Shown here piece by piece: positions 12,852 through 64,000 of a stretch of DNA of 64,000 bases (position 1 is the stretch's first letter; every line of letters begins with the position of its first letter). The DNA lies in contig CBDDEC010000004.1 in assembly GCA_965226785.1 (NCBI GenBank), positions 588,093 to 652,092 on the forward strand. The letters are read 5' to 3'. The notes beneath the pieces are model-generated. The model was given only the letters and a program-made list of their open reading frames with translations, made no database searches and was not told the DNA's origin. This DNA comes from Dehalococcoidia bacterium. Lineage in GTDB: Bacteria; Chloroflexota; Dehalococcoidia; UBA2979. Position numbers and translations under genes: made by a program.

Positions 12852-12987
12852 TTCGCGATCCGTGTTCGTTGAGTGCTTCGTCTTCTACTCAAGCAAGACG
12901 CACTACCCGCTCAGATTGTTCCCAGAGGCTAGAAAGCATCGGTGGTGGGGGTGTAGTGAACCGCCCCGGGTTTAGTGGAGACTCGGT

Positions 12988-14195
<1,208 letters not shown>

Positions 14196-14355
14196 CGCTC
14201 CATCCTCTCAAGGACTGGAGCCTCCAACATTCCCGGGGCGGTTCACGCAGCTACTCAGGTGTCGCGCCAGCTCGCGTCTTGACAGTCTGGCAGCGCGCTG
14301 ATAGCACTCCAACGATGCAAGCTCCGACCGGACGTCGTTTGGCGGTGGTGAGCTG

Positions 14356-27299: not shown

Positions 27300-27347
27300 C
27301 TTGGACCTCCCCATAGTGAACCGCCCCGGGTTTAGTGGAGACTCGGT

Positions 27348-28555
<1,208 letters not shown>

Positions 28556-28628
28556 CGCTCCATCCTCTCAAGGACTGGAGCCTCCAACATTCCCGGGGCG
28601 GTTCAGAGAGCCGAACTAAGCGAGGTTG

Positions 28629-37175: not shown

Positions 37176-37830
37176 ATGACCGTGCTTTACCTCGGCGTCG
37201 TGATCTCGGTGTTGACGCTCCCGGCGTCGCGGCCGACGCAGGTGGTGGTGGGCCGGTCGGTGTTTGGCGACATGCTCGCCGGGTGGCGCTACGTCATACG
37301 CCAGCCACGCCTGCGCACGATGATCCTGCTCTTCTACTGCATGATCATGCTCGGTCTGTCTTCGACCACCGCCTTCCCTGGCCTGGTCGAGAACGAACTC
37401 GGGCGCAGGGTCGAGGACATCGGCGTGATGTCTCGGTGAGCGCGGTCGGCGGCCTGCTCGCGAGCGTCTTCGTCGCTCCGATCGCCGGTTCGAGGCGTGC
37501 GCTGCCGGTCTACGCGGCTGGCGGCGTCCTCACCGGGCTGTCGTTGGTGCTCGTCGGCCTGACGCCGACGTTCCTGCTGGTCTTCGGACCGATGTTCCTG
37601 ATGGGCCTGGGCACGGGCGCATTCCAGACACTCAACAGCGCCGTGATCGTCACCGAGTCGGCGCCGCAGTACTACGGCCGCGTCATCTCACAGACCTCGA
37701 TGGCGTTTGGAGCGTTCATGCTCGCCTCGCTGCCGGTCGGCCTCGCTGCCGGTCGGCCTCGCGGCCGACGCGTTCGGCGAGCGGGCGACACTGATCGTGA
37801 TCGGACTGCTGATCATCCCGTGGGGCGGCA
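37176..37830 (+). pseudogene. MFS transporter pseudogene (5'-truncated, frameshifted)
   Basis: Two frames carry segments homologous to residues about 170-430 of MFS gene 1336..2631 (YVIRQPRLRTMILLF, FPGLVENELG, ESAPQYYGRVISQT). A 16-bp tandem duplication tcgctgccggtcggcc x2 at 37721..37752 shifts the frame. Confidence 0.65.
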
Positions 37831-37916
37831 ATATTCCATCCAGTCCATGATTTCAGCTTTTCGGAGTCAGCGGCGCGCCTCGCGGATACGGCGGATGAGG
37901 TTTTCGTGCCCCACAG
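37829..37916. repeat. MITE-like ~90-bp repeat element A, copy 1 (terminal inverted repeats CGTGGGGC / GCCCCACAG)
   Basis: Near-identical copies at 53626..53723 and 56495..56592. Imperfect TIRs. The internal GGCGCGCC palindrome is within a duplex-like region. Confidence 0.6.
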
Positions 37917-37921
37917 GGTGG

Positions 37922-39629
37922 GGGTGTGAGATCTCGGTACCCGCACGACAGAACGGCTCCGGTACGTGCACGACATGTGGTGCAGGGTACTAGGCTGCAT
38001 TGATCCGGTCCGGCCTGCCACCTGGGTTCGCAAAGGCACCATGCTCCTTCCTGCGGTCGTGTCTGGCCGCGTGCGTACGAATGATTCGGTCATCGCTCCA
38101 GATCGGCACCGTGTCGCCTGCCAGGGAGACCTCCACCTGGCGTCCCCGGAACGCGTTGCCGACGCGGTAGTTGGCGCCCGCGAAGCTCACCGAGCCGTTG
38201 CGGTCGACCTTGCGGACGACCACCCGGTCCGAGGCCGGACGCTTCGGCGCCGCGGCGAGCGCCTGCTTCAGCACCCGCTCCTCCTGCTCAGGGAGGTGCC
38301 GCCGGGCGTGCGTCGCCACGAGCACCGCGTCGTGGAAGACCTCCACGAGACCGTCGTGACAGACGAGTTCGACGGACTGTCCGGCGAGGTAGCGGCCGAC
38401 GTGGTACTTGAAGTTGAGCAGGCTCACCTTGCCGTCCACGAGCACCCGCCGGAGCAGGCGCGGGGCCGGTGGACCGGGCTCACCCTCCGGGGCTGTTGCC
38501 ACCGGCTCCGACTCCTCAAGGGGCGTCGGATGCGCGGTGGCGAAGCGCTCGGCCGGGGGCCGGTTGCCGAGGCTCTGGTGCTCGCGGCAGTGGTTGTAGT
38601 CGTGCACCCAGGCGTCGATCGCTGCCTGCGCCTCGGCGATCGACGCGAAGACCTTGCCGTCCAGGGACTCCCGCTTCAGCGTCTTGTGGAAGCGCTCGAC
38701 CTTGCCGGTGGTGGTCGGTGACGCAGGCGCGGTCAGCAGGTGGCGGATGCCGTGCTCGCGGCAGATCCGGTCGAAGCGCACCTCGCTCTGGCGCGGCCCG
38801 AAGCGGCCGGTGAAGACCTTGCCGTTGTCGGAGAGGATCGCCTCCGGCACGCCGTGACGGCGCATTGCCTCCAGCAGGGCGTCGCAGACCGGCCGGGCGG
38901 TGGCGCGTGCGACGACCTTCGCCGAGACGCAGAACCGCGAGTGGTCGTCGATGCCCGTCACGATCGAGGGGCGCGAGCCATCCTGTAGCCGCACCCCGAG
39001 CGTAATGTCCATCTGCCAGAGCTCCATCGCCCGCGAGCGCTCCCAGCGCTTGTAGTCGCTGGGCCGCCTGCGCCGTCGCTTGGGGTCGATGAGCTGGTGG
39101 CGGACGAGCGCCCGGTAGATGCCGGACCGAGAGGGGAGAGGCGAGACGCCGGCGCGGGCAAGCCTGCTCAGGATCGTGCGCGGCCCCCAGCCGCGGTGCT
39201 GTCGTCTCATCTCGACGACGCGGGCCTCGACCGCCGGCGGCATCTGGTGCGGGCAGTTGCTGGGGCGTGAACTACGGTCGGCGAGCCCCGGGAGTCCTTC
39301 GGCCGCGTAGCGCCGCAGCCACGTGTGCACCGTCTGCCGCCCGACGCCGTAGCGACGCGCGACGTCGGTGACGCTCGCGGCTCCGTCGAGTACCTCGAGC
39401 ACCGCCCTATACCGCTGTTCCACGAGCCCCAACTCCACCAGCATGGCGGCCTCCTCCGCTGCGGACGGGATCGTCCACCGGGAGGGGCCCTCGAGCAGGA
39501 CCAGGAAGAGCAGCCAGGTGTCGCCCGGCTACCGGAGCCAGTGTCGCCTGCGTACCGGAGCCGCGTCCGCGAAGTGTCGTGCAGGTACCGGCGCCAGGGT
39601 GTCGCCTAGCTACCGGAACCTCACACACT
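37922..39629 (-). mobile_element. IS481-family insertion sequence (type 2), ~1.7 kb, with subterminal repeated motifs
   Basis: Ends are inverted: both read (GTGTCGYSNNGTACCGGNGCC)xN...CTCACAC outward. There are four direct copies of the ~22-bp motif at 39520..39615 and two at 37930..37985. A solo right-end copy lies at 56775..56841. Confidence 0.65.
37990..39444 (-). CDS. IS481-family DDE transposase (484 aa)
   Basis: N-terminal HTH (VTDVARRYGVGRQTVHTWLRRY). DDE core MELWQMDITL...ILSDNGKVF...HNHCREHQSLG. Long C-terminal extension. Confidence 0.75.
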   Translation of the reverse strand: MLVELGLVEQRYRAVLEVLDGAASVTDVARRYGVGRQTVHTWLRRYAAEGLPGLADRSSRPSNCPHQMPPAVEARVVEMRRQHRGWGPRTILSRLARAGVSPLPSRSGIYRALVRHQLIDPKRRRRRPSDYKRWERSRAMELWQMDITLGVRLQDGSRPSIVTGIDDHSRFCVSAKVVARATARPVCDALLEAMRRHGVPEAILSDNGKVFTGRFGPRQSEVRFDRICREHGIRHLLTAPASPTTTGKVERFHKTLKRESLDGKVFASIAEAQAAIDAWVHDYNHCREHQSLGNRPPAERFATAHPTPLEESEPVATAPEGEPGPPAPRLLRRVLVDGKVSLLNFKYHVGRYLAGQSVELVCHDGLVEVFHDAVLVATHARRHLPEQEERVLKQALAAAPKRPASDRVVVRKVDRNGSVSFAGANYRVGNAFRGRQVEVSLAGDTVPIWSDDRIIRTHAARHDRRKEHGAFANPGGRPDRINAA

Positions 39630-39648
39630 CCATGCAAGTGGCGAAGTC

Positions 39649-39696
39649 TGGAGCGGGAGAAGGGATTCGAACCCTCGACCCTCTGCTTGGGAAGCA
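39649..39696 (-). other. tRNA 3'-terminal fragment (T-arm + acceptor 3' strand + CCA); candidate integration att site remnant
   Basis: Minus strand reads ...GGGTCGAGGGTTCGAATCCCTTCTCCCGCTCCA, i.e. T-stem GAGGG/CCCTT, T-loop TTCGAAT, acceptor 3' strand, discriminator and CCA. No complementary 5' acceptor strand or D-arm was found within 130 nt. Adjacent to a tyrosine integrase. Confidence 0.55.
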
Positions 39697-39800
39697 CGCT
39701 GGTTGCCGCAGCAGGCGACATAACTCAGATGTGAGACTGCAGGGAAACTGCAGGGGAATCGCAGGTCAGGGGCCCGCTCGGTGCCGCTTCTGAGGCGGGC

Positions 39801-40727
39801 TCAGCGAGACACCGGGCCGATCATCTGGTCGCCCGGGGAGAAGCGATGGTGGCGTGTTGCCGCCTGCTCCGAGCGGTAGGCCGAGCTGTAGCGACGCACC
39901 ATGTCGGGCGAGGAGTGTCCGAGCAGGTACTGCACGTCGAGTTCGCGGGCATCGTGTGCGATGGCCCACGTCGCGAATGTGTGGCGGAAGCGATGCGCGT
40001 GCACTTTCGCCACTTCTGCGCGACGACCCAGGCGGCGGAGCATCTGCTTGAGCCCGTTCGGTCGGAGCGCGGTCGCTGGCTTCAACTCACCAAGGTGGCT
40101 GGCCGCTACGAAGAGCGGACCCGGAGCCGTTCCCCGCCGCTCGAGGTAGCGCTCCAGCGCGGCGCCACAGTGCGCTGCAAAGGGCACCACGCGCTGCTTG
40201 TTGCCCTTGCCGTGGCGTACGCGCAGCCGGCGCGTCTCGAGGTCGAGGTCATCGAGCGTCAGCTGAACGAGCTCTGAGCATCGCAGGCCAGTGTCGAGTA
40301 AGCACAGCACCATCGCACGATCCCGCAGCCCGAGCGCGGTGGCTGAATCGCACCCCGCCATCAGCTGCGCGATGTCGGCTGGCGAGAACGGCTCGACAAT
40401 GCGCTGTGGCAGCCGGACGTTCTTGATCCCCCGGAACGGGTTGTCTTGGAGGTGGCGAGCGTCGACGAGCCAGTTGAAGAAGCAGCGGACCTCGCGGAAG
40501 TAGCGGTGTCGAGTCTCAAGGCTGAGGTGAGAGAAGCCGCCCAAATAGCGGTAGACGTCTTCCGGCGTGACCGCCGCCGCGTCGGCGACCGTCACTGCGC
40601 GGGCGAAGCGATTCAGTGACTCTCGGTATGCGCGCACCGTCTGCGCGGACTTGCCCTCGACCTCACAGCGCAGGAGGTACAGCGCGCTTAGCTCGGTGAG
40701 GGAGGGGCTCGCGTTCATCACGAGCAT
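39801..40727 (-). CDS. tyrosine-type site-specific recombinase/integrase (Xer/phage-integrase family)
   Basis: C-terminal catalytic motifs ...HRFRHTFATWAI...LLGHSSPDMVRRY. N-terminal SAM-like domain. Start at ATG 40727; the ORF is open to a TTG at 40754. Confidence 0.8.
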   Translation of the reverse strand: MLVMNASPSLTELSALYLLRCEVEGKSAQTVRAYRESLNRFARAVTVADAAAVTPEDVYRYLGGFSHLSLETRHRYFREVRCFFNWLVDARHLQDNPFRGIKNVRLPQRIVEPFSPADIAQLMAGCDSATALGLRDRAMVLCLLDTGLRCSELVQLTLDDLDLETRRLRVRHGKGNKQRVVPFAAHCGAALERYLERRGTAPGPLFVAASHLGELKPATALRPNGLKQMLRRLGRRAEVAKVHAHRFRHTFATWAIAHDARELDVQYLLGHSSPDMVRRYSSAYRSEQAATRHHRFSPGDQMIGPVSR

Positions 40728-40756
40728 GGACGCTCTCTCCCAGGCCGAAGTCAAGC

Positions 40757-41497
40757 GGTGCCGCGGCCATCCGCATCGTCGGCGAGCTGCGTGCGCTTGG
40801 CTTCGACGTCAGCGCTCGCACCGTGAGTCGTTACCGCCGGCAAGCGCTGCGGCGACCGCCGAGCCAGTCGTGGCGCACGTTTCTCCGCAACCACGCGTCC
40901 AGCATCTGGGCCGCCGATCTGTTCACGGTCCAGACGCTCGCCTTCCGCACGCTCTCCGTGCTCATCGTGATCGACCACGACCGGCGCCGCATCCGGCACT
41001 GGAACGTCACGGAGCATCCGAACGCGCCCTGGATCTGGCAGCAGATGATCGAGGCGACCGCCTGGGGTCAGCAGCCAGGGTTCCTCATCCGAGACCGCGA
41101 CCGTAGCTATGGCGGAGACTTCATCGCACGCGCTCGACGGCTCGGGATCGAGACGATTCTGACTCCGGTGCACGCGCCGAATGCCAACGCCATCGCCGAG
41201 CGCGTCATCGGCACGCTCAGGCGCGAGTGTCTCGACCATGTCATCGCGGTCAACGAACAACATCTCCGGCGGGTGCCTGGTGAGTACGTCCAGCACTACA
41301 ACGCGATGCGGCCGCATCGATCATTGGCGCTCGACTCTCCGGAGGGACGCTCGCCGGTGCAGCGGACGCCGAGTCAGCGAGTTGTCAGCAAGCCGGTGCT
41401 AGGAGGTTTGCATCATGAGTATCGGTGGGCCGCATCAGGTTTTGCCGACTTGTTTGAATCCGGCCAGACACCGGGGGTTGCGGCCCTAAGGTGTTGA
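40757..41497 (+). pseudogene. IS481-like (type 1) element copy D: 5'-truncated transposase, stop codon mutated, right IR interrupted by IS110
   Basis: Homologous to the transposase 51259..52338 from residue ~135 onward. Terminal GCATGAGGTTTTGCCGTCCCAC is altered to GCATCAGGTTTTGCCG|ACTTG. The remaining CCCACGG is found at about 42673. Confidence 0.7.
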
Positions 41498-51236: not shown

Positions 51237-52353
51237 GTGGGACGGCAAAACCTGATAGGTGCAGCTCTGTCCTGAGATAGCAGAGTATCGGCGAGCCACG
51301 AGAGGCTCGTCTGTGCTCTACCTCCGTCTGCTTGTCGCAGCACTCTTCGCATCGGTCCGCGCCCGCCGAGATCTCGTCCTCGAGAACTTGGCGCTGCGGC
51401 ATCAGCTCGCCGTCTACACAAGGGGCCGTCGTCGACCGCGGCTCCGTCGCCACGACCGCCGACTCTGGTCACTGCTGGCACGTGGTTGGTCCGGCTGGCG
51501 AGGCACGCTCGTGATGGTCGAGCCGGACACGGTGGTGCGCTGGCATCGTTCTGCTTGGCGCGCCTACTGGCGCTGGAAGAGTCGTCGCCGCTCCGGACGA
51601 CCCCGGATTCCCGCAGAGCTGCGACAGCTGATCGTCCGCATCGCCACTGAGCATCCGCGGTGGGGCGCCGTCCGCATCGTCGGCGAGCTGCGTGCCCTTG
51701 GCTTCGAGGTCAGCGCCCGCACCGTGAGTCGCTACCGTCAGCAGGCGCTCCGGCGACCGCCGAGTCAGTCGTGGCACACGTTTCTCCGCAACCACGCGTC
51801 CAGCATCTGGGCCGCCGATCTGTGCACGGTCCAGACGCTCGCCTTCCGCACGCTCTCCGTGCTCATCGTGATCGACCACGACCGGCGCCGCATCCGGCAC
51901 TGGAACGTCACGGAGCATCCGAACGCGCCCTGGATCTGGCAGCAGCTGATCGAGGCGAGCGCCTGGGGTCAGCAGCCAGGGTTCCTGATCCGAGACCGCG
52001 ACCGTAGCGATGGCGGAGACTTCATCGCACGCGCTCGACGGATCGGGATCGAGACGATTCTGACTCCGGTGCACGCGCCGAATGCCAACGCCATCGCCGA
52101 GCGCGTCATCGGCACGCTCAGGCGCGAGTGTCTCGACCATGTCATCGCGGTCAACGAACAACATCTCCGGCGGGTGCCTGGTGAGTACGTCCAGCACTAC
52201 AACGCGATGCGTCCGCATCGATCATTGTCGCTCGACTCTCCGGAGGGACGCTCGCCGGTGCAGCGGACGCCGAGTCAGCGAGTCGTCAGCAAGCCGGTGC
52301 TAGGAGGCTTGCATCATGAGTATCGGTGGGCCGCATGAGGTTTTGCCGTCCCA
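51237..52353 (+). mobile_element. IS481-like (type 1) insertion sequence, copy A (~1.1 kb, intact)
   Basis: Terminal IRs GTGGGACGGCAAAACCT (left) and rc at the right end. Copies at 57243.. (truncated), 60041..61158 (intact), 63921.. (edge), 40757.. (fragment). Confidence 0.8.
51259..52338 (+). CDS. DDE (rve integrase-core) transposase, IS481-like single-ORF type (359 aa)
   Basis: N-terminal leucine-zipper/HTH (LVLENLALRHQLAV, HPRWGAVRIVGELRALG). Core IWAADLFTVQT...LIRDRDRS...RPHRSL. Confidence 0.8.
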   Translation: MQLCPEIAEYRRATRGSSVLYLRLLVAALFASVRARRDLVLENLALRHQLAVYTRGRRRPRLRRHDRRLWSLLARGWSGWRGTLVMVEPDTVVRWHRSAWRAYWRWKSRRRSGRPRIPAELRQLIVRIATEHPRWGAVRIVGELRALGFEVSARTVSRYRQQALRRPPSQSWHTFLRNHASSIWAADLCTVQTLAFRTLSVLIVIDHDRRRIRHWNVTEHPNAPWIWQQLIEASAWGQQPGFLIRDRDRSDGGDFIARARRIGIETILTPVHAPNANAIAERVIGTLRRECLDHVIAVNEQHLRRVPGEYVQHYNAMRPHRSLSLDSPEGRSPVQRTPSQRVVSKPVLGGLHHEYRWAA

Positions 52354-52564
52354 CGGCCAGCCCGGGTCGCCGAGGTCCCTTGCCGAGATGGCCGTGGCCT
52401 CTGGCGAGATGGAGCCGGGAAAGAGCTCCAGCAGCACATCGGGCGAGCTGGTCCCCGCGCTAGGTATGGTGGGCTGCCCGCGAACTCCGCCACGATCAAG
52501 TCGGCGAAGTCGCCAGCAGAGACTTCGCGTTGGGGGGCAGCCTGTGAAGCAGGGCAGTAGGTCG

Positions 52565-53625: not shown

Positions 53626-53723
53626 CGTGGGGCGGCAATATTCCATCCAGCCCATGATTTCAGCGTTTCGGAGTCAGCGGCGCGCCTCGCGGATACGGCG
53701 GATGAGGTTTTCGTGCCCCACAG
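53626..53723. repeat. MITE-like repeat element A, copy 2
   Basis: See 37829..37916. Confidence 0.6.
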
Positions 53724-53752
53724 GTGTGGGGCGCGGGTGACACGGCCGAGGA

Positions 53753-54088
53753 GTGCATGCAGTCTCTCGACGAACGATTGGGCTCTGGGTCGAGGCGGAG
53801 CTCGAGGGCGGCCGGGACATTCCCGAGCCGAGTGACCCGGAGCGCTACTCGGGCCACTACACGCTGCGCATCCCGCCGGCGCTCCAAGCGGACGCTGCCG
53901 AGTTCGCGGAGCTGCAGGGTGTAAGCCTCAACCGTGTCTTCTCTGCCGCCATCGCGTTCTACGTCGGCCGGCACACCGGTGGCATCGCGGTTGATGAGCT
54001 GGCACCACCGGTGCACCGAGAGCTCGTGCCGTTTCAGCTCGAAGCTCTAGAGAAGATCGTCGACCTACAGGGGGCTGCGGGCGGATGA
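53753..54088 (+). CDS. ribbon-helix-helix (CopG/HicB-antitoxin-like) DNA-binding protein
   Basis: YSGHYTLRIPPALQADAAEFAELQGVSLNRVFSAAIAFYV resembles the C-terminal RHH of HicB-family antitoxins. No HicA partner found. Confidence 0.4.
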   Translation: MHAVSRRTIGLWVEAELEGGRDIPEPSDPERYSGHYTLRIPPALQADAAEFAELQGVSLNRVFSAAIAFYVGRHTGGIAVDELAPPVHRELVPFQLEALEKIVDLQGAAGG

Positions 54089-56494: not shown

Positions 56495-56592
56495 CGTGGG
56501 GCGGCAATATTCCATCCAGCCCATGATTTCGGCGTTTCGGAGTCAGCGGCGCGCCTCGCGGATACGGCGGATGAGGTTTTCGTGCCCCACAG
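56495..56592. repeat. MITE-like repeat element A, copy 3
   Basis: See 37829..37916. Confidence 0.6.
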
Positions 56593-56774: not shown

Positions 56775-56841
56775 GTGTGGGTGTGAGATCTCGGTACCCG
56801 CACGACAGAACGGCTCCGGTACCTGCACGACATGTGGTGCA
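56775..56841. repeat. solo right-end remnant of the type 2 IS481-family element
   Basis: GTGTGGGTGTGAGATCTCGGTACCCGCACGACAGAACGGCTCCGGTACCTGCACGACATGTGGTGCA is about 95% identical to 37917..37985. No transposase adjacent. Confidence 0.6.
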
Positions 56842-57238: not shown

Positions 57239-57242
57239 CGCC

Positions 57243-58172
57243 GTGGGACGGCAAAACTTGATCCGTGCAGGTCTGTCCTGAGATAGCAGAGTATCGGCGA
57301 GCCACGAGAGGCTCGTCTGTGCTCTACCTCCGTCTGCTTGTCGCAGCACTCTTCGCATCGGTCCGCGCCCGCCGAGATCTCGTCCTCGAGCACTTGGCGC
57401 TGCGGCATCAGCTCGCCGTCTACACAAGGGGCCGTCGTCGACCGCGGCTCCGTCGCCACGACCGCCGACTCTGGTCACTGCTGGCACGTGGTTGGTCCGG
57501 CTGGCGAGGCACGCTCGTGATGGTCGAGCCGGACACGGTGGTGCGCTGGCATCGTTCTGCTTGGCGCGCCTACTGGCGCTGGAAGAGTCGTCGCCGCTCC
57601 GGACGACCCCGGATTCCCGCAGAGCTGCGACAGCTGATCGTCCGCATCGCCACTGAGCATCCGCGGTGGGGCGCCGTCCGCATCGTCGGCGAGCTGCGTG
57701 CCCTTGGCTTCGAGGTCAGCGCCCGCACCGTGAGTCGCTACCGCCGGCAAGCGCTGCGGCGCCCCCCGAGCCAGTCGTGGCGCACGTTTCTCCGCAACCA
57801 CGCGTCCAGCATCTGGGCCGCCGATCTGTTCACGGTCCAGACGCTCGCCTTCCGCACGCTCTCCGTGCTCATCGTGATCGACCACGACCGGCGCCGCATC
57901 CGGCACTGGAACGTCACGGAGCATCCGAACGCGCCCTGGATCTGGCAGCAGATGATCGAGGCGACCGCCTGGGGTCAGCAGCCAGGGTTCCTGATCCGAG
58001 ACCGCGACCGTAGCTATGGCGGAGACTTCATCGCACGCGCTCGACGGCTCGGGATCGAGACGATTCTGACTCCGGTGCACGCGCCGAATGCCAACGCCAT
58101 CGCCGAGCGCGTCATCGGCACGCTCAGGCGCGAGTGTCTCGACCATGTCATCACGGTCAACGAACAACATCT
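57243..58172 (+). mobile_element. IS481-like (type 1) copy B, 3'-truncated by nested IS3 insertion
   Basis: Left IR and the first about 290 codons of the transposase (57265..58172) are present. The gene runs directly into the IS3 IR at 58173. Confidence 0.8.
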
Positions 58173-58222
58173 TGAACCGCCCCGGGAATGTTGGAGGCTC
58201 CAGTCCTTGAGAGGATGGAGCG

Positions 58223-59430
<1,208 letters not shown>

Positions 59431-59519
59431 ACCGAGTCTCCACTAGCGAACCCGGGGCGGTTCAGTCCGGAGAACCGGGTCAGGCTCCGAGAGCCTCAGT
59501 TTGAGTCGAGGAGGAAAGC

Positions 59520-59927: not shown

Positions 59928-60040
59928 CCAAGGAACGCCGCGCAAGGTCTCTGGCAAAGCCCGTTGCGACCCTTGGTACGAGTTCGCAGTACAGCACGCT
60001 TAGGCCCACCACCCTGACTGAAGACAACACCGGGGCCGCC

Positions 60041-61158
60041 GTGGGACGGCAAAACCTGATAGGTGCAGCTCTGTCCTGAGATAGCAGAGTATCGGCGAGC
60101 CACGAGAGGCTCGTCTGTGCTCTACCTCCGTCTGCTTGTCGCAGCACTCTTCGCTTCGGTCCGCGCCCGCCGAGATCTCGTCCTCGAGAACTTGGCGCTG
60201 CGGCATCAGCTCGCCGTCTACACCCGGGGCTGTCGTCGACCGCGGCTCCGTCGCCACGACCGCCGATTCTGGTCACTACTGGCACGCGGTTGGTTCGGCT
60301 GGCGAGGCACGCTCGTGATGGTCGAGCCGGACACGGTGGTGCGGTGGCATCGTTCTGCTTGGCGCGCCTACTGGCGCTGGAAGAGTCGTCGCCGCTCCGG
60401 ACGACCCCGGATTCCCGCAGAGCTGCGACAGCTGATCGTCCGCATCGCCACTGAGCATCCGCGGTGGGGCGCCGTCCGCATCGTCGGCGAGCTGCGTGCC
60501 CTTGGCTTCGAGGTCAGCGCCCGCACCGTGAGTCGCTACCGCCGGCAAGCGCTGCGGCGCCCCCCGAGCCAGTCGTGGCGCACGTTTCTCCGCAACCACG
60601 CGTCCAGCATCTGGGCCGCCGATCTGTTCACGGTCCAGACGCTCGCCTTCCGCACGCTCTACGTGCTCATCGTGATCGACCGCGACCGGCGCCGCATCCG
60701 GCACTGGAACGTCACGGAGCATCCGAACGCGCCCTGGATCTGGCAGCAGATGATCGAGGCGACCGCCTGGGGTCAGCAGCCAGGGTTCCTGATCCGAGAC
60801 CGCGACCGTAGCTATGGCGGAGACTTCATCGCACGCGCTCGACGGCTCGGGATCGAGACGATTCTGACTCCGGTGCGCGCGCCGAATGCCAACGCCATCG
60901 CCGAGCGCGTCATCGGCACGCTCAGGCGCGAGTGTCTCGACCATGTCATCGCGGTCAACGAACAACATCTCCGGCGGGTGCTTGGTGAGTACGTCCAGCA
61001 CTACAACGCGATGCGTCCGCATCGATCATTGTCGCTCGACTCTCCGGAGGGACGCTCGCCGGTGCAGCGGACGCCGAGTCAGCGAGTCGTCAGCAAGCCG
61101 GTGCTAGGAGGCTTGCATCATGAGTATCGGTGGGCCGCATGAGGTTTTGCCGTCCCAC
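60041..61158 (+). mobile_element. IS481-like (type 1) insertion sequence, copy C (intact)
   Basis: IRs as in copy A. Transposase 60063..61142 (359 aa, a few substitutions relative to A). Confidence 0.8.
60063..61142 (+). CDS. DDE (rve) transposase, IS481-like type 1
   Basis: About 97% identical to 51259..52338. Confidence 0.8.
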   Translation: MQLCPEIAEYRRATRGSSVLYLRLLVAALFASVRARRDLVLENLALRHQLAVYTRGCRRPRLRRHDRRFWSLLARGWFGWRGTLVMVEPDTVVRWHRSAWRAYWRWKSRRRSGRPRIPAELRQLIVRIATEHPRWGAVRIVGELRALGFEVSARTVSRYRRQALRRPPSQSWRTFLRNHASSIWAADLFTVQTLAFRTLYVLIVIDRDRRRIRHWNVTEHPNAPWIWQQMIEATAWGQQPGFLIRDRDRSYGGDFIARARRLGIETILTPVRAPNANAIAERVIGTLRRECLDHVIAVNEQHLRRVLGEYVQHYNAMRPHRSLSLDSPEGRSPVQRTPSQRVVSKPVLGGLHHEYRWAA

Positions 61159-61588
61159 GGGCCCATAACTACGCCTGTATCGCGGTTCAGTGTGGCACCA
61201 TCACTCGCGGGTAGCAGCGGCGAAGTTGGGGCAATGGCCATGTACGCCGGTGACTCCGTGCGTTTCATCCGCGGGGTCGAACCTGCGAGTGAGATAGTTC
61301 GCGAGATCGCTGAAGGTGCCGACGAGCTCCTGCGTGCGCGGAGCTGAGATCCCCGGCCCCCGGCAGGGCTGACTGCGTATTGACGCCCGGGCAGCATCTT
61401 CCTCTGGGACGGCGACGGCTCAATGACGCACGAGGACTCGATGCGCAGCCTGCGGCTGATGGGCGAGGAGGTGCTCCCTGCCATGCGCGAAGTCGCCGAC
61501 GAACTCCGCCTAGACGGCCCCTTCGACGTCCACCCGATGACCGGAGCACGCCGCGAAGGCTCGGCCGTCGAGGGCTAGGCGCGTCTTC

Positions 61589-63795: not shown

Positions 63796-63920
63796 GCCTC
63801 GCTGTCCTCGTCACGAGCGCCAATCGAGGATTGGCCCTCTGGGCGCTATCATCGCGACCGTCTGCGGGGAGCGGACGTTGCTCGTGAACGGAGCGTCGAG
63901 GATGGACTGGAGTGACACGC

Positions 63921-64000
63921 GTGGGACGGCCCTGATAGGTGCAGCTCTGTCCTGAGATAGCAGAGTATCGGCGAGCCACGAGAGGCTCGTCTGTGCTCTA
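63921..64000 (+). mobile_element. IS481-like (type 1) copy E, left end only (runs off window)
   Basis: GTGGGACGGCCCTGATAGGTGCAGCTCTGTCCTGAGATAGCAGAGTATCGG. Left IR with a 4-bp deletion (AAAA missing). Confidence 0.7.

What the first reader, a model, noticed from the sequence alone, without database searches (positions are those of the whole stretch)
37829..37916. Novel ~90-bp MITE-like repeat (three copies) with terminal inverted repeats, found next to IS481-family ends
The same element (CGTGGGGCGGCAATATTCCATCCAGYCCATGATTTCRGCKTTTCGGAGTCAGCGGCGCGCCTCGCGGATACGGCGGATGAGGTTTTCGTGCCCCACAG) occurs at 37829..37916, 53626..53723 and 56495..56592. The copies are 95% or more identical, with imperfect terminal inverted repeats (CGTGGGGC / GCCCCAC-G), and fall in unrelated contexts (after a pseudogenised MFS gene, upstream of an RHH gene, in an IS-remnant region). 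At locus 1 the right end of the type 2 IS481-family IS starts 5 bp after it. At locus 3 a solo right end of the same IS lies 182 bp away. At locus 2 about 12 bp resembling the IS tip follow it. This suggests either a non-autonomous element or a structured repeat that the IS targets.
Basis: seen in the sequence. Interest (0 to 1): 0.6.

Follow-up and report, generated by a model that had tools for sequence, protein, structure and literature searches.

The report
98-bp MITE of a local IS group
The 98-bp repeat is real and is a miniature non-coding transposable element (MITE) whose two ends copy the terminal repeats of an insertion-sequence group that is abundant in the same genomes; this is an ordinary kind of mobile DNA, and its only oddity is that every copy joins two unrelated, truncated pieces of DNA.

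Summary

I found 19 more copies or near-copies in 15 loci: one GTDB 'Dehalococcoidia' MAG and several ENA long-read metagenome assemblies. These give 19 different left flanks and 18 different right flanks. There were no hits in plasmids, phages, JGI metagenomes or IMG/VR.

It is not a gene fragment, an IS3 left end, an att site or a structured RNA/DNA repeat.

Its tips match the terminal inverted repeats of an rve-type DDE IS group, not those of the neighbouring 'type 2' IS481:
- 'Type 1' IS, about four copies in the window: 19 of 26 positions.
- A related remnant, 'IS-X', at 45167-45759: 16 of 16 at the right tip.

MITE ends and type-1 IS ends also share a flank signature: position -2 is always G or C, and position -1 is C>T>G, never A.

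One insertion, split over two contigs, implies a 9-bp target duplication. No single copy has a duplication on both of its sides, and all nine junctions examined join unrelated truncated genes or ISs.

The type-2 IS481 adjacency occurs only in this window and is probably incidental.

Verdict: a new member of a known kind, of low to moderate interest.

The parts
37819..37916 (+). MITE copy 1 (98 bp). Its left flank is a 3'-truncated MFS gene. Its right flank is a few bp, then the type-2 IS481, then a tRNA-Gly 3' fragment.
   Evidence: The same locus without the IS is seen in L003 and L011, and with the IS in L012.
53626..53723 (+). MITE copy 2 (identical to the consensus). Its left flank is 'region A' (XRE regulator and neighbours). 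Its right flank is a 5'-truncated, frameshifted hicB pseudogene.
   Evidence: L001 and L015 carry region A joined to a different sequence ('X') with no MITE.
56495..56592 (+). MITE copy 3. Its right flank is a 5'-truncated orfB of an IS3-family (IS407-like) element, which is intact in L003.
51236..52355 (+). Complete 'type 1' IS (1120 bp; rve-type DDE transposase at 51259-52338). Its ends are CGTGGGACGGCAAAACCTGAT ... CATGAGGTTTTGCCGTCCCACG. It is the only intact candidate to mobilise the MITE in trans.
60040..61159 (+). Second complete type-1 IS
57242..58172 (+). Type-1 IS copy interrupted at 58173 by an IS3-family element (58173-59445). The rest of this type-1 copy is absent.
63920..64000 (+). 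Left end of a further type-1 IS that runs off the window; its left IR carries a short deletion.
40755..41447 (+). Partial type-1 IS (roughly positions 428-1112). Its right IR is interrupted at 41447 by an IS110-family element.
45167..45759 (-). Remnant of a third IS of the same group ('IS-X'): the C-terminal half of the transposase plus the right end. The tip TGTGGGGCACGAAAAC is identical to the MITE's right tip (16 of 16). It is truncated by the IS6 element at 45760-46596.
37920..39631 (-). Type-2 IS, a true IS481-family member (transposase 37990-39444). It is inserted between MITE copy 1 and the tRNA fragment. It is a neighbour, not a relative, of the MITE.
56775..56841 (+). Solo right end of the type-2 IS, 183 bp from copy 3
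39638..39699 (-). 3' fragment of a tRNA-Gly(CCC), not a complete gene, lying between the IS/MITE and a tyrosine integrase gene (39801-40754). It looks like the att-site remnant of an integrative element.

Best explanation
[quoted passage not shown] It carries no gene and has only the two ends that a transposase recognises. Those ends belong to the terminal-repeat family of an rve-type DDE insertion-sequence group that has expanded in this lineage. That group comprises the 'type 1' IS of the window, which is intact, and a sister 'IS-X' known only as remnants. Inference: a transposase of this group, supplied in trans, binds both tips and moves the element, making a 9-bp (possibly 10-bp) target duplication. 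Near-identity of copies across samples points to recent activity. After insertion, one or both flanks are typically replaced. This could happen by transposase-driven intramolecular events (adjacent deletion or inversion, or cointegrate-like products) or by recombination between copies. Either way, each surviving copy is a joint between unrelated truncated genes or ISs. Shown: the anatomy, the copy set, the end similarity, the shared flank signature, one split target duplication, and the chimeric junctions. Inferred: which transposase acts, and how the flanks get replaced.
For: (1) There are 22 copies or near-copies, 98-100% identical, plus one 89% variant of 99 bp. Boundaries are identical, with 19 distinct left and 18 distinct right flanks, in the window, a GTDB MAG and at least 8 ENA assemblies.
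(2) There is no conserved reading frame. The 12 database 'proteins' that span the element use three different frames and are unrelated outside it.
(3) End similarity over 26 nt: MITE left tip against type-1 IRs 17-19; against solo ends in L004 and L015 22 and 20. MITE right tip against the L004 IS-X right end 22 of 26 (21 of 22 contiguous), and against the window IS-X remnant 16 of 16. The shuffle null has mean 8.6, sd 4.4 and a maximum of 19 in 2000 trials. The IS3 control scores 6 and the two type-2 ends score 16 and 5.
(4) MITE ends and type-1 IS ends share a flank signature. Position -2 is G or C in 19/19 (MITE) and 37/37 (IS). Position -1 is C>T>G and never A. The MITE's right side mirrors this: G in 17/18, then G or C in 18/18. 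The background is 65% G+C.
(5) The left flank of L010:1196 ends with CCGGCAAGC and the right flank of L013:5701 begins with CCGGCAAGC. These are type-1 IS positions 503-511, so they are the two halves of one insertion with a 9-bp duplication. About 0.0015 such matches are expected by chance among about 400 pairs.
(6) L001 and L015 have region A continuing into other DNA exactly where window copy 2 begins.
(7) The same loci hold other non-autonomous derivatives of the group (590-bp and 410-bp elements).
Against: No single copy has a target duplication on both of its own sides (0 of 19). No clean empty site (same flanks, element absent) was found. The five complete type-1 IS copies examined also lack duplications, so the duplication length rests on one split pair. 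The tips are only about 70-75% identical to the intact type-1 IS. The better-matching IS-X has no intact copy in any data I could reach (best relatives are 73% identical fragments), so no proven source of transposase exists. Copy number is low: 3 in the representative MAG.
Confidence: 0.8

Rival explanations
1. The repeat is a structured, REP-like host repeat, or a preferred insertion target for the type-2 IS481 element.
For: Two type-2 right ends in the window lie 3-9 bp and 183 bp from MITE copies. IS families that target REPs or IRs exist (my own knowledge).
Against: Folding is no better than shuffles: z = -1.3 and -0.5 for RNA, +0.5 for DNA. There is no Rfam hit and no terminator or promoter. 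Outside this window, no independent MITE locus has a type-2 end within 200 bp. The type-2 ends in L009 and L014 lie 5-8 kb away, and L002's look-alike tip has no type-2 transposase behind it. The tips match another IS group instead.
Confidence: 0.05
2. The repeat is an immobile relic: a solo left end of an IS3-family element (IR, leader and start codon), or leftover IS ends spread only by segmental duplication.
For: In L001 the repeat's last 10 bp supply GAGG-N5-GTG in frame with an IS3 orfA (MPHTRAYPPEF...).
Against: Normal orfA homologues start MPRAYPPEF, with a different upstream sequence (MSPREESW...), so the L001 IS3 is merely truncated at its start codon. The 19 different left and 18 different right flanks begin at the same nucleotide, which excludes spread by segmental duplication.
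Confidence: 0.04
3. The repeat is a recombination or attachment site used by the neighbouring tyrosine integrase. It would be an arm of an attP/attR next to the tRNA-Gly fragment, and this would explain why it sits at joints between unrelated DNA.
For: Copy 1, L003 and L011 all have the MITE 11 bp from the same tRNA-Gly 3' fragment. Next to that fragment lie two different integrative elements: integrases 74% identical at the nucleotide level, or a terminase-bearing element. All junctions are chimeric.
Against: Only this one context, out of about 19, has a tRNA fragment. Elsewhere integrase genes are absent, or are themselves truncated by the MITE (L010). The ends are inverted repeats of the DDE-IS type and share the IS's flank signature. 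A 9-bp split duplication is a transposase hallmark, not a tyrosine-recombinase one.
Confidence: 0.04
4. The repeat is an assembly or sequencing artefact, such as an adapter or chimera linker, in low-coverage long-read contigs.
For: Several host contigs are at 1-3x coverage, and every copy joins unrelated sequences.
Against: It is present in independent samples and assemblies, in a 3.67-Mb contig at 10.5x, in a curated MAG and three times in this window. Sequence variants and a diverged subfamily exist. Its ends are homologous to native IS ends.
Confidence: 0.02

Closest known systems
Bacterial IS-derived MITEs, e.g. MITEAba12 of Acinetobacter (PMC6382973; details from my own knowledge: 113 bp, IS-like TIRs, 9-bp TSD) and the Correia elements of Neisseria
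   Same: About 100 bp, non-coding, with terminal inverted repeats that match those of a resident IS. Multiple dispersed near-identical copies. A 9-bp duplication is inferred.
   Different: Copy number is low. No individual copy keeps its duplication, and every junction examined is chimeric. The best-matching parent IS survives only as remnants. The host is an uncultured Chloroflexota ('Dehalococcoidia') lineage.
IS3/IS481 superfamily of rve-type DDE insertion sequences (the partner IS group)
   Same: The transposase has an rve_3 core with HTH_32/HTH_21 domains and a single ORF. The IS is about 1.1 kb and its tips conform to TG...CA.
   Different: The type-1 transposase scores below the NCBIfam cut-offs for both IS3 (94 against 160) and IS481 (81 against 224). 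No flanking duplications are seen on five complete copies.
IS26/IS6-type behaviour: copies without flanking duplications, because of replicative or targeted events and adjacent deletions (my own knowledge)
   Same: Element copies sit at joints between unrelated DNA. The target duplication is found split between two different copies.
   Different: The transposase family and IR sequence are different. The mechanism here is only inferred from junction patterns in metagenome contigs.

Membership tests
MITE (miniature inverted-repeat transposable element) | Short (under about 300-500 bp) and without coding capacity | tested here: met
   The element is 97-98 bp. ORFs spanning it use different frames and are unrelated outside it.
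MITE (miniature inverted-repeat transposable element) | Terminal inverted repeats | tested here: met
   GTGGGGC/GCCCCAC is perfect over 7 bp; the repeat is 17 of 26 with one gap.
MITE (miniature inverted-repeat transposable element) | TIRs resemble those of an autonomous IS in the same genome | tested here: met
   Type-1 IS 17-19 of 26. IS-X remnants 16 of 16 and 21 of 22 at the right tip. Solo ends 20-22 of 26 at the left tip. The shuffle maximum is 19.
MITE (miniature inverted-repeat transposable element) | Many copies at unrelated sites with identical boundaries | tested here: met
   19 distinct left and 18 distinct right flanks.
MITE (miniature inverted-repeat transposable element) | Target-site duplication flanking each copy | tested here: inconclusive
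   0 of 19 copies have a duplication on their own two sides. One 9-bp duplication is split between L010 and L013.
MITE (miniature inverted-repeat transposable element) | Filled/empty site polymorphism | tested here: inconclusive
   L001 and L015 lack the MITE where window copy 2 begins, but the right-hand side differs, so this is not a clean empty site.
MITE (miniature inverted-repeat transposable element) | Mobilisation in trans by the parent transposase | not testable with these tools
   Needs a transposition assay. The shared flank signature is indirect support.
IS481 family (for the partner 'type 1' IS) | Transposase reaches the curated IS481 model cut-off | tested here: not met
   NF033577 scores 81 bits against a cut-off of 224. 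The IS3 model scores 94 against 160. The type-2 IS does meet it (299 bits).
REP-like or structured intergenic repeat | Stable, conserved secondary structure beyond the composition expectation | tested here: not met
   z = -1.28 and -0.49 (RNA), +0.53 (DNA); no Rfam family.
Tyrosine-recombinase att site | Constant association with an integrase and a core shared with the target (tRNA) | tested here: not met
   A tRNA fragment and integrase occur in only one of about 19 contexts.

The most novel reading that the evidence does not exclude
This rve-type IS group and its MITE may transpose mainly by a replicative or otherwise deletion-prone route (IS26- or Mu-like in outcome). Under this reading, single copies almost never keep a target duplication, and each event fuses the element tip to distant DNA. 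The 98-bp MITE would then be an active engine of gene truncation and mosaic formation in an uncultured Chloroflexota lineage. Such behaviour has not been described for IS3/IS481-like transposases.
Probability: 0.2. Interest if true: 0.5.

Novelty: new member of a known kind. Interest (0 to 1): 0.25.

Why it matters
It gives a clean annotation for three otherwise puzzling repeats, and it identifies the IS group (not the adjacent IS481) to which they belong. It also flags a lineage whose IS-rich regions are riddled with non-autonomous derivatives. The one feature of wider interest is that neither the MITE nor its full-length relatives carry their own target duplications, and all MITE junctions examined are chimeric. 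If that reflects the transposition chemistry rather than later recombination, it would be an unusual behaviour for an IS3/IS481-like transposase.

Tried and rejected
1. Tn3-type IR / TIME idea (GGGG...ACGAAAAC). There is no 5-bp duplication, and the ends match a DDE-rve IS instead.

2. IS3 left-end idea. Rejected after comparing orfA homologues.

3. attP-arm or attC-like site. Rejected because the tRNA/integrase context is seen only once.

4. HicA/HicB operon element. hicB is simply a truncated pseudogene.

5. Collection searches.
- Plasmid and phage BLAST: no hits.
- JGI metagenome and IMG/VR scans with an exact 22-mer and with a two-tip gapped pattern: no hits.
- The genome scan hit one MAG only.

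6. Search for an intact IS-X parent, using the L004 transposase C-terminus. Only fragments of 73% identity or less were found.

7. Duplication searches.
- Same-copy searches with boundary offsets of 0-3 and k of 4-14: nothing.
- Cross-copy search for type-1 IS ends: nothing convincing.

8. L002's 'type-2-like tip' that truncates a MITE. There is no type-2 transposase behind it.

9. A CoA-transferase continuity test for the L006 flanks: no match.

Full report
**Observation**

The window holds three copies of a 98-nt unit, CGTGGGGC...CCCCACAG, at 37819-37916, 53626-53723 and 56495-56592. All are on the + strand and differ at three positions only. Probes for either end hit exactly these three sites, with none expected in shuffles. 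Homology stops abruptly at both ends.

**Not a structured repeat**

The unit does not fold better than shuffled sequence. RNA z-scores are -1.3 and -0.5, and the DNA z-score is +0.5. It has no Rfam match and no promoter-like or terminator-like site.

**Finding more copies**

BLAST against plasmids and phages found nothing. An exact 22-mer scan of one genome per GTDB species hit a single MAG, labelled 'Dehalococcoidia bacterium' (CBDAOL01), on three contigs. JGI metagenomes and IMG/VR gave nothing, either with the 22-mer or with a tip-gap-tip pattern.

To reach other assemblies I concatenated peptides translated from five of the element's six reading frames and searched the protein collection. 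Twelve spurious ORFs contained the peptide in one frame or another. Fetching their contigs gave loci L004-L015.

Altogether there are 22 copies or near-copies:
- Most are 100% identical to copy 2.
- One is an 89% variant of 99 bp.
- A few are tip-truncated.

They give 19 different left flanks and 18 different right flanks. So the repeat is not confined to the window, and it is not part of a longer conserved gene. The ORFs that cross it use three different frames and are unrelated outside it.

**What it is related to**

In L004 the end of a transposase gene is followed by ...TGATGACGTTTTCGTGCCCCACA, which matches the repeat's last 22 nt with one mismatch. In L005 a copy lies next to the left end of the window's commonest IS. 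This led me to the ends of that 'type 1' IS.

The type-1 IS (window 51236-52355 and 60040-61159, plus partial copies at 57242, 63920 and 40755) has the ends CGTGGGACGGCAAAACCTGAT...CATGAGGTTTTGCCGTCCCACG. The repeat's tips are CGTGGGGCGGCAATATTCCATCC (left) and, reverse-complemented, CTGTGGGGCACGAAAACCTCATCC (right). They clearly belong to the same IR family. Scores over 26 nt were:

| Comparison | Matches |
|---|---|
| Repeat left tip vs type-1 IRs | 17-19 |
| Repeat left tip vs solo ends in L004 and L015 | 22 and 20 |
| Repeat right tip vs L004 IS | 22 |
| Repeat left tip vs IS3 control | 6 |
| Repeat left tip vs the two type-2 ends | 16 and 5 |
| Shuffle null | mean 8.6, maximum 19 in 2000 |

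A relaxed tip search in the window then uncovered a remnant at 45167-45759 on the - strand. It holds the C-terminal half of a transposase that is about 64% identical to type 1 and 72% identical to the L004 IS. Its right tip, TGTGGGGCACGAAAAC, equals the repeat's right tip at 16 of 16 positions. I call this sister element IS-X. No intact copy was found; the best database relatives are fragments at 73% identity or less.

**Family of the partner IS**

The type-1 transposase is an rve-type DDE enzyme (rve_3, HTH_32, HTH_21). It scores below the NCBIfam cut-offs for both IS3 and IS481.

**Shared flank signature**

Immediately outside the tip, position -2 is G or C in 19/19 MITE left junctions and in 37/37 type-1 IS ends. 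Position -1 is C>T>G and never A in both sets. The MITE's right side mirrors this: G in 17/18, then G or C in 18/18. The background is 65% G+C. This points to the same transposition machinery or target preference.

**Target duplication and junctions**

No copy has a direct repeat on its own two sides. Among all left-by-right flank pairs there is exactly one match. The left flank of L010:1196 ends with CCGGCAAGC, and the right flank of L013:5701 begins with CCGGCAAGC. Both flanks are type-1 IS sequence, overlapping at IS positions 503-511. These are the two halves of one insertion with a 9-bp duplication (10 bp if the final G is target). They are now attached to different partners on two contigs.

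Every junction I could interpret is chimeric:

| Copy | Left flank | Right flank |
|---|---|---|
| Window copy 1 | MFS gene | tRNA fragment |
| Window copy 2 | region A | truncated hicB |
| Window copy 3 | unknown | truncated IS407-like orfB |
| L001 | IS6 transposase | IS3 orfA cut at its start codon |
| L003 | truncated fabF | tRNA fragment |
| L004 | IS-X transposase | DUF6998 gene |
| L009 | hsdR-like N-terminus | exonuclease C-terminus |
| L010 | type-1 IS | integrase fragment |
| L013 | DUF3267 | type-1 IS |

L001 and L015 carry region A continuing into different DNA exactly where window copy 2 begins. The complete type-1 ISs also lack duplications. Many 5' fragments of the type-1 IS end where another element's tip begins.

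Two explanations fit, and I cannot separate them with these data:
- transposase-driven intramolecular or replicative events (adjacent deletions, inversions, cointegrate-like products);
- recombination between copies in IS-dense, decaying regions.

**Ideas rejected**

- Tn3-like IR. Rejected: there is no 5-bp duplication.
- Left end of an IS3 element. In L001 the repeat supplies GAGG-N5-GTG in frame with orfA. However, normal orfA homologues start MPRAYPPEF with a different leader, so that IS3 is merely truncated.
- Integrase att arm. Copy 1, L003 and L011 share the arrangement MITE, 11 bp, tRNA-Gly(CCC) 3' fragment, next to two different integrative elements. This is one context out of about 19. 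It is best read as a MITE that landed just downstream of a tRNA gene later used as an attachment site.
- Preferred target of the type-2 IS481. Both type-2 right ends in the window are near MITE copies, but no other independent MITE locus has one within 200 bp. The look-alike tip in L002 has no type-2 transposase behind it. The 12 bp after copy 2 is hicB coding sequence.

**Verdict**

This is a new MITE, 97-98 bp long, belonging to an rve-type IS group of an uncultured Chloroflexota lineage. It has been recently active or recently spread. It was probably mobilised in trans, by type 1 or by an unsampled IS-X. A 9-bp duplication is inferred from a single split pair.

It is a new member of a known kind. 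The only unusual aspect is the complete lack of intact duplications and the universally chimeric junctions. If these reflect the mechanism, they would be worth a targeted follow-up.

Noticed in passing
window 39638-39699 (-) and 39801-40754 (-): A tRNA-Gly(CCC) 3' fragment (no complete tRNA anywhere in the window) lies next to a tyrosine integrase. The same MITE-11 bp-tRNA fragment junction occurs in L003 and L011. In L003 the integrase is only 74% identical at the nucleotide level; in L011 a terminase-bearing element sits there instead. This looks like a recurrently used attachment site.
   Followed up: partly
window 41448-42678; L001 2507-3947: An IS110-family element is inserted inside the right terminal repeat of a type-1 IS (after ...GGTTTTGCCG). 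The same insertion point is seen in the MAG. This fits the IS110 habit of targeting IRs.
   Followed up: partly
window 12954-14246, 27314-28606, 58173-59445 (inverted): Three 100% identical copies of an IS3-family element, each with an ALIL frameshift pseudoknot (Rfam RF01497). The third copy interrupts a type-1 IS.
   Followed up: no
window 53724-54088: A hicB antitoxin pseudogene. It lacks about its first 25-30 codons and any hicA partner, and it has an internal frameshift. It begins exactly at the MITE's right end.
   Followed up: partly
window 51236-52355, 60040-61159; L015 6167-7287, 8834-9959; L010 5826-6414: Complete type-1 IS copies and a 590-bp internal-deletion derivative show no flanking target duplication. 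Many 5' fragments of this IS (positions 1-144, 1-237, 1-461) end where another element's tip starts.
   Followed up: partly
L015 6074-6190: The right tip of a type-1 IS abuts a MITE at MITE position 5 (...GCCGTCCCACG|GGCGGCAATATT), so the two elements lie tip to tip.
   Followed up: no
L005 4758-4779 and 5089-5186: A solo MITE left tip (23 nt, with one deletion) lies in inverted orientation 310 bp from a full copy, with the tips facing each other.
   Followed up: no
L004 18200-18221; L015 441-850; L012 1648-2288: Further short elements or solo ends carry related tips (CGTGGGGCGGCAAAATCCCATCC...), including a 410-bp element and a 640-bp element. The lineage therefore holds several non-autonomous derivatives of this IS group.
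   Followed up: no
window 63920-63945: The left IR of the last type-1 IS copy carries a short deletion (CGTGGGACGGCCCTGATAGG instead of CGTGGGACGGCAAAACCTGATAGG).
   Followed up: no
window 40754/40755: The start region of the integrase gene abuts an internal point (about position 428) of a type-1 IS with no element tip at the joint. Tip-independent deletions therefore also occur in this region.
   Followed up: no
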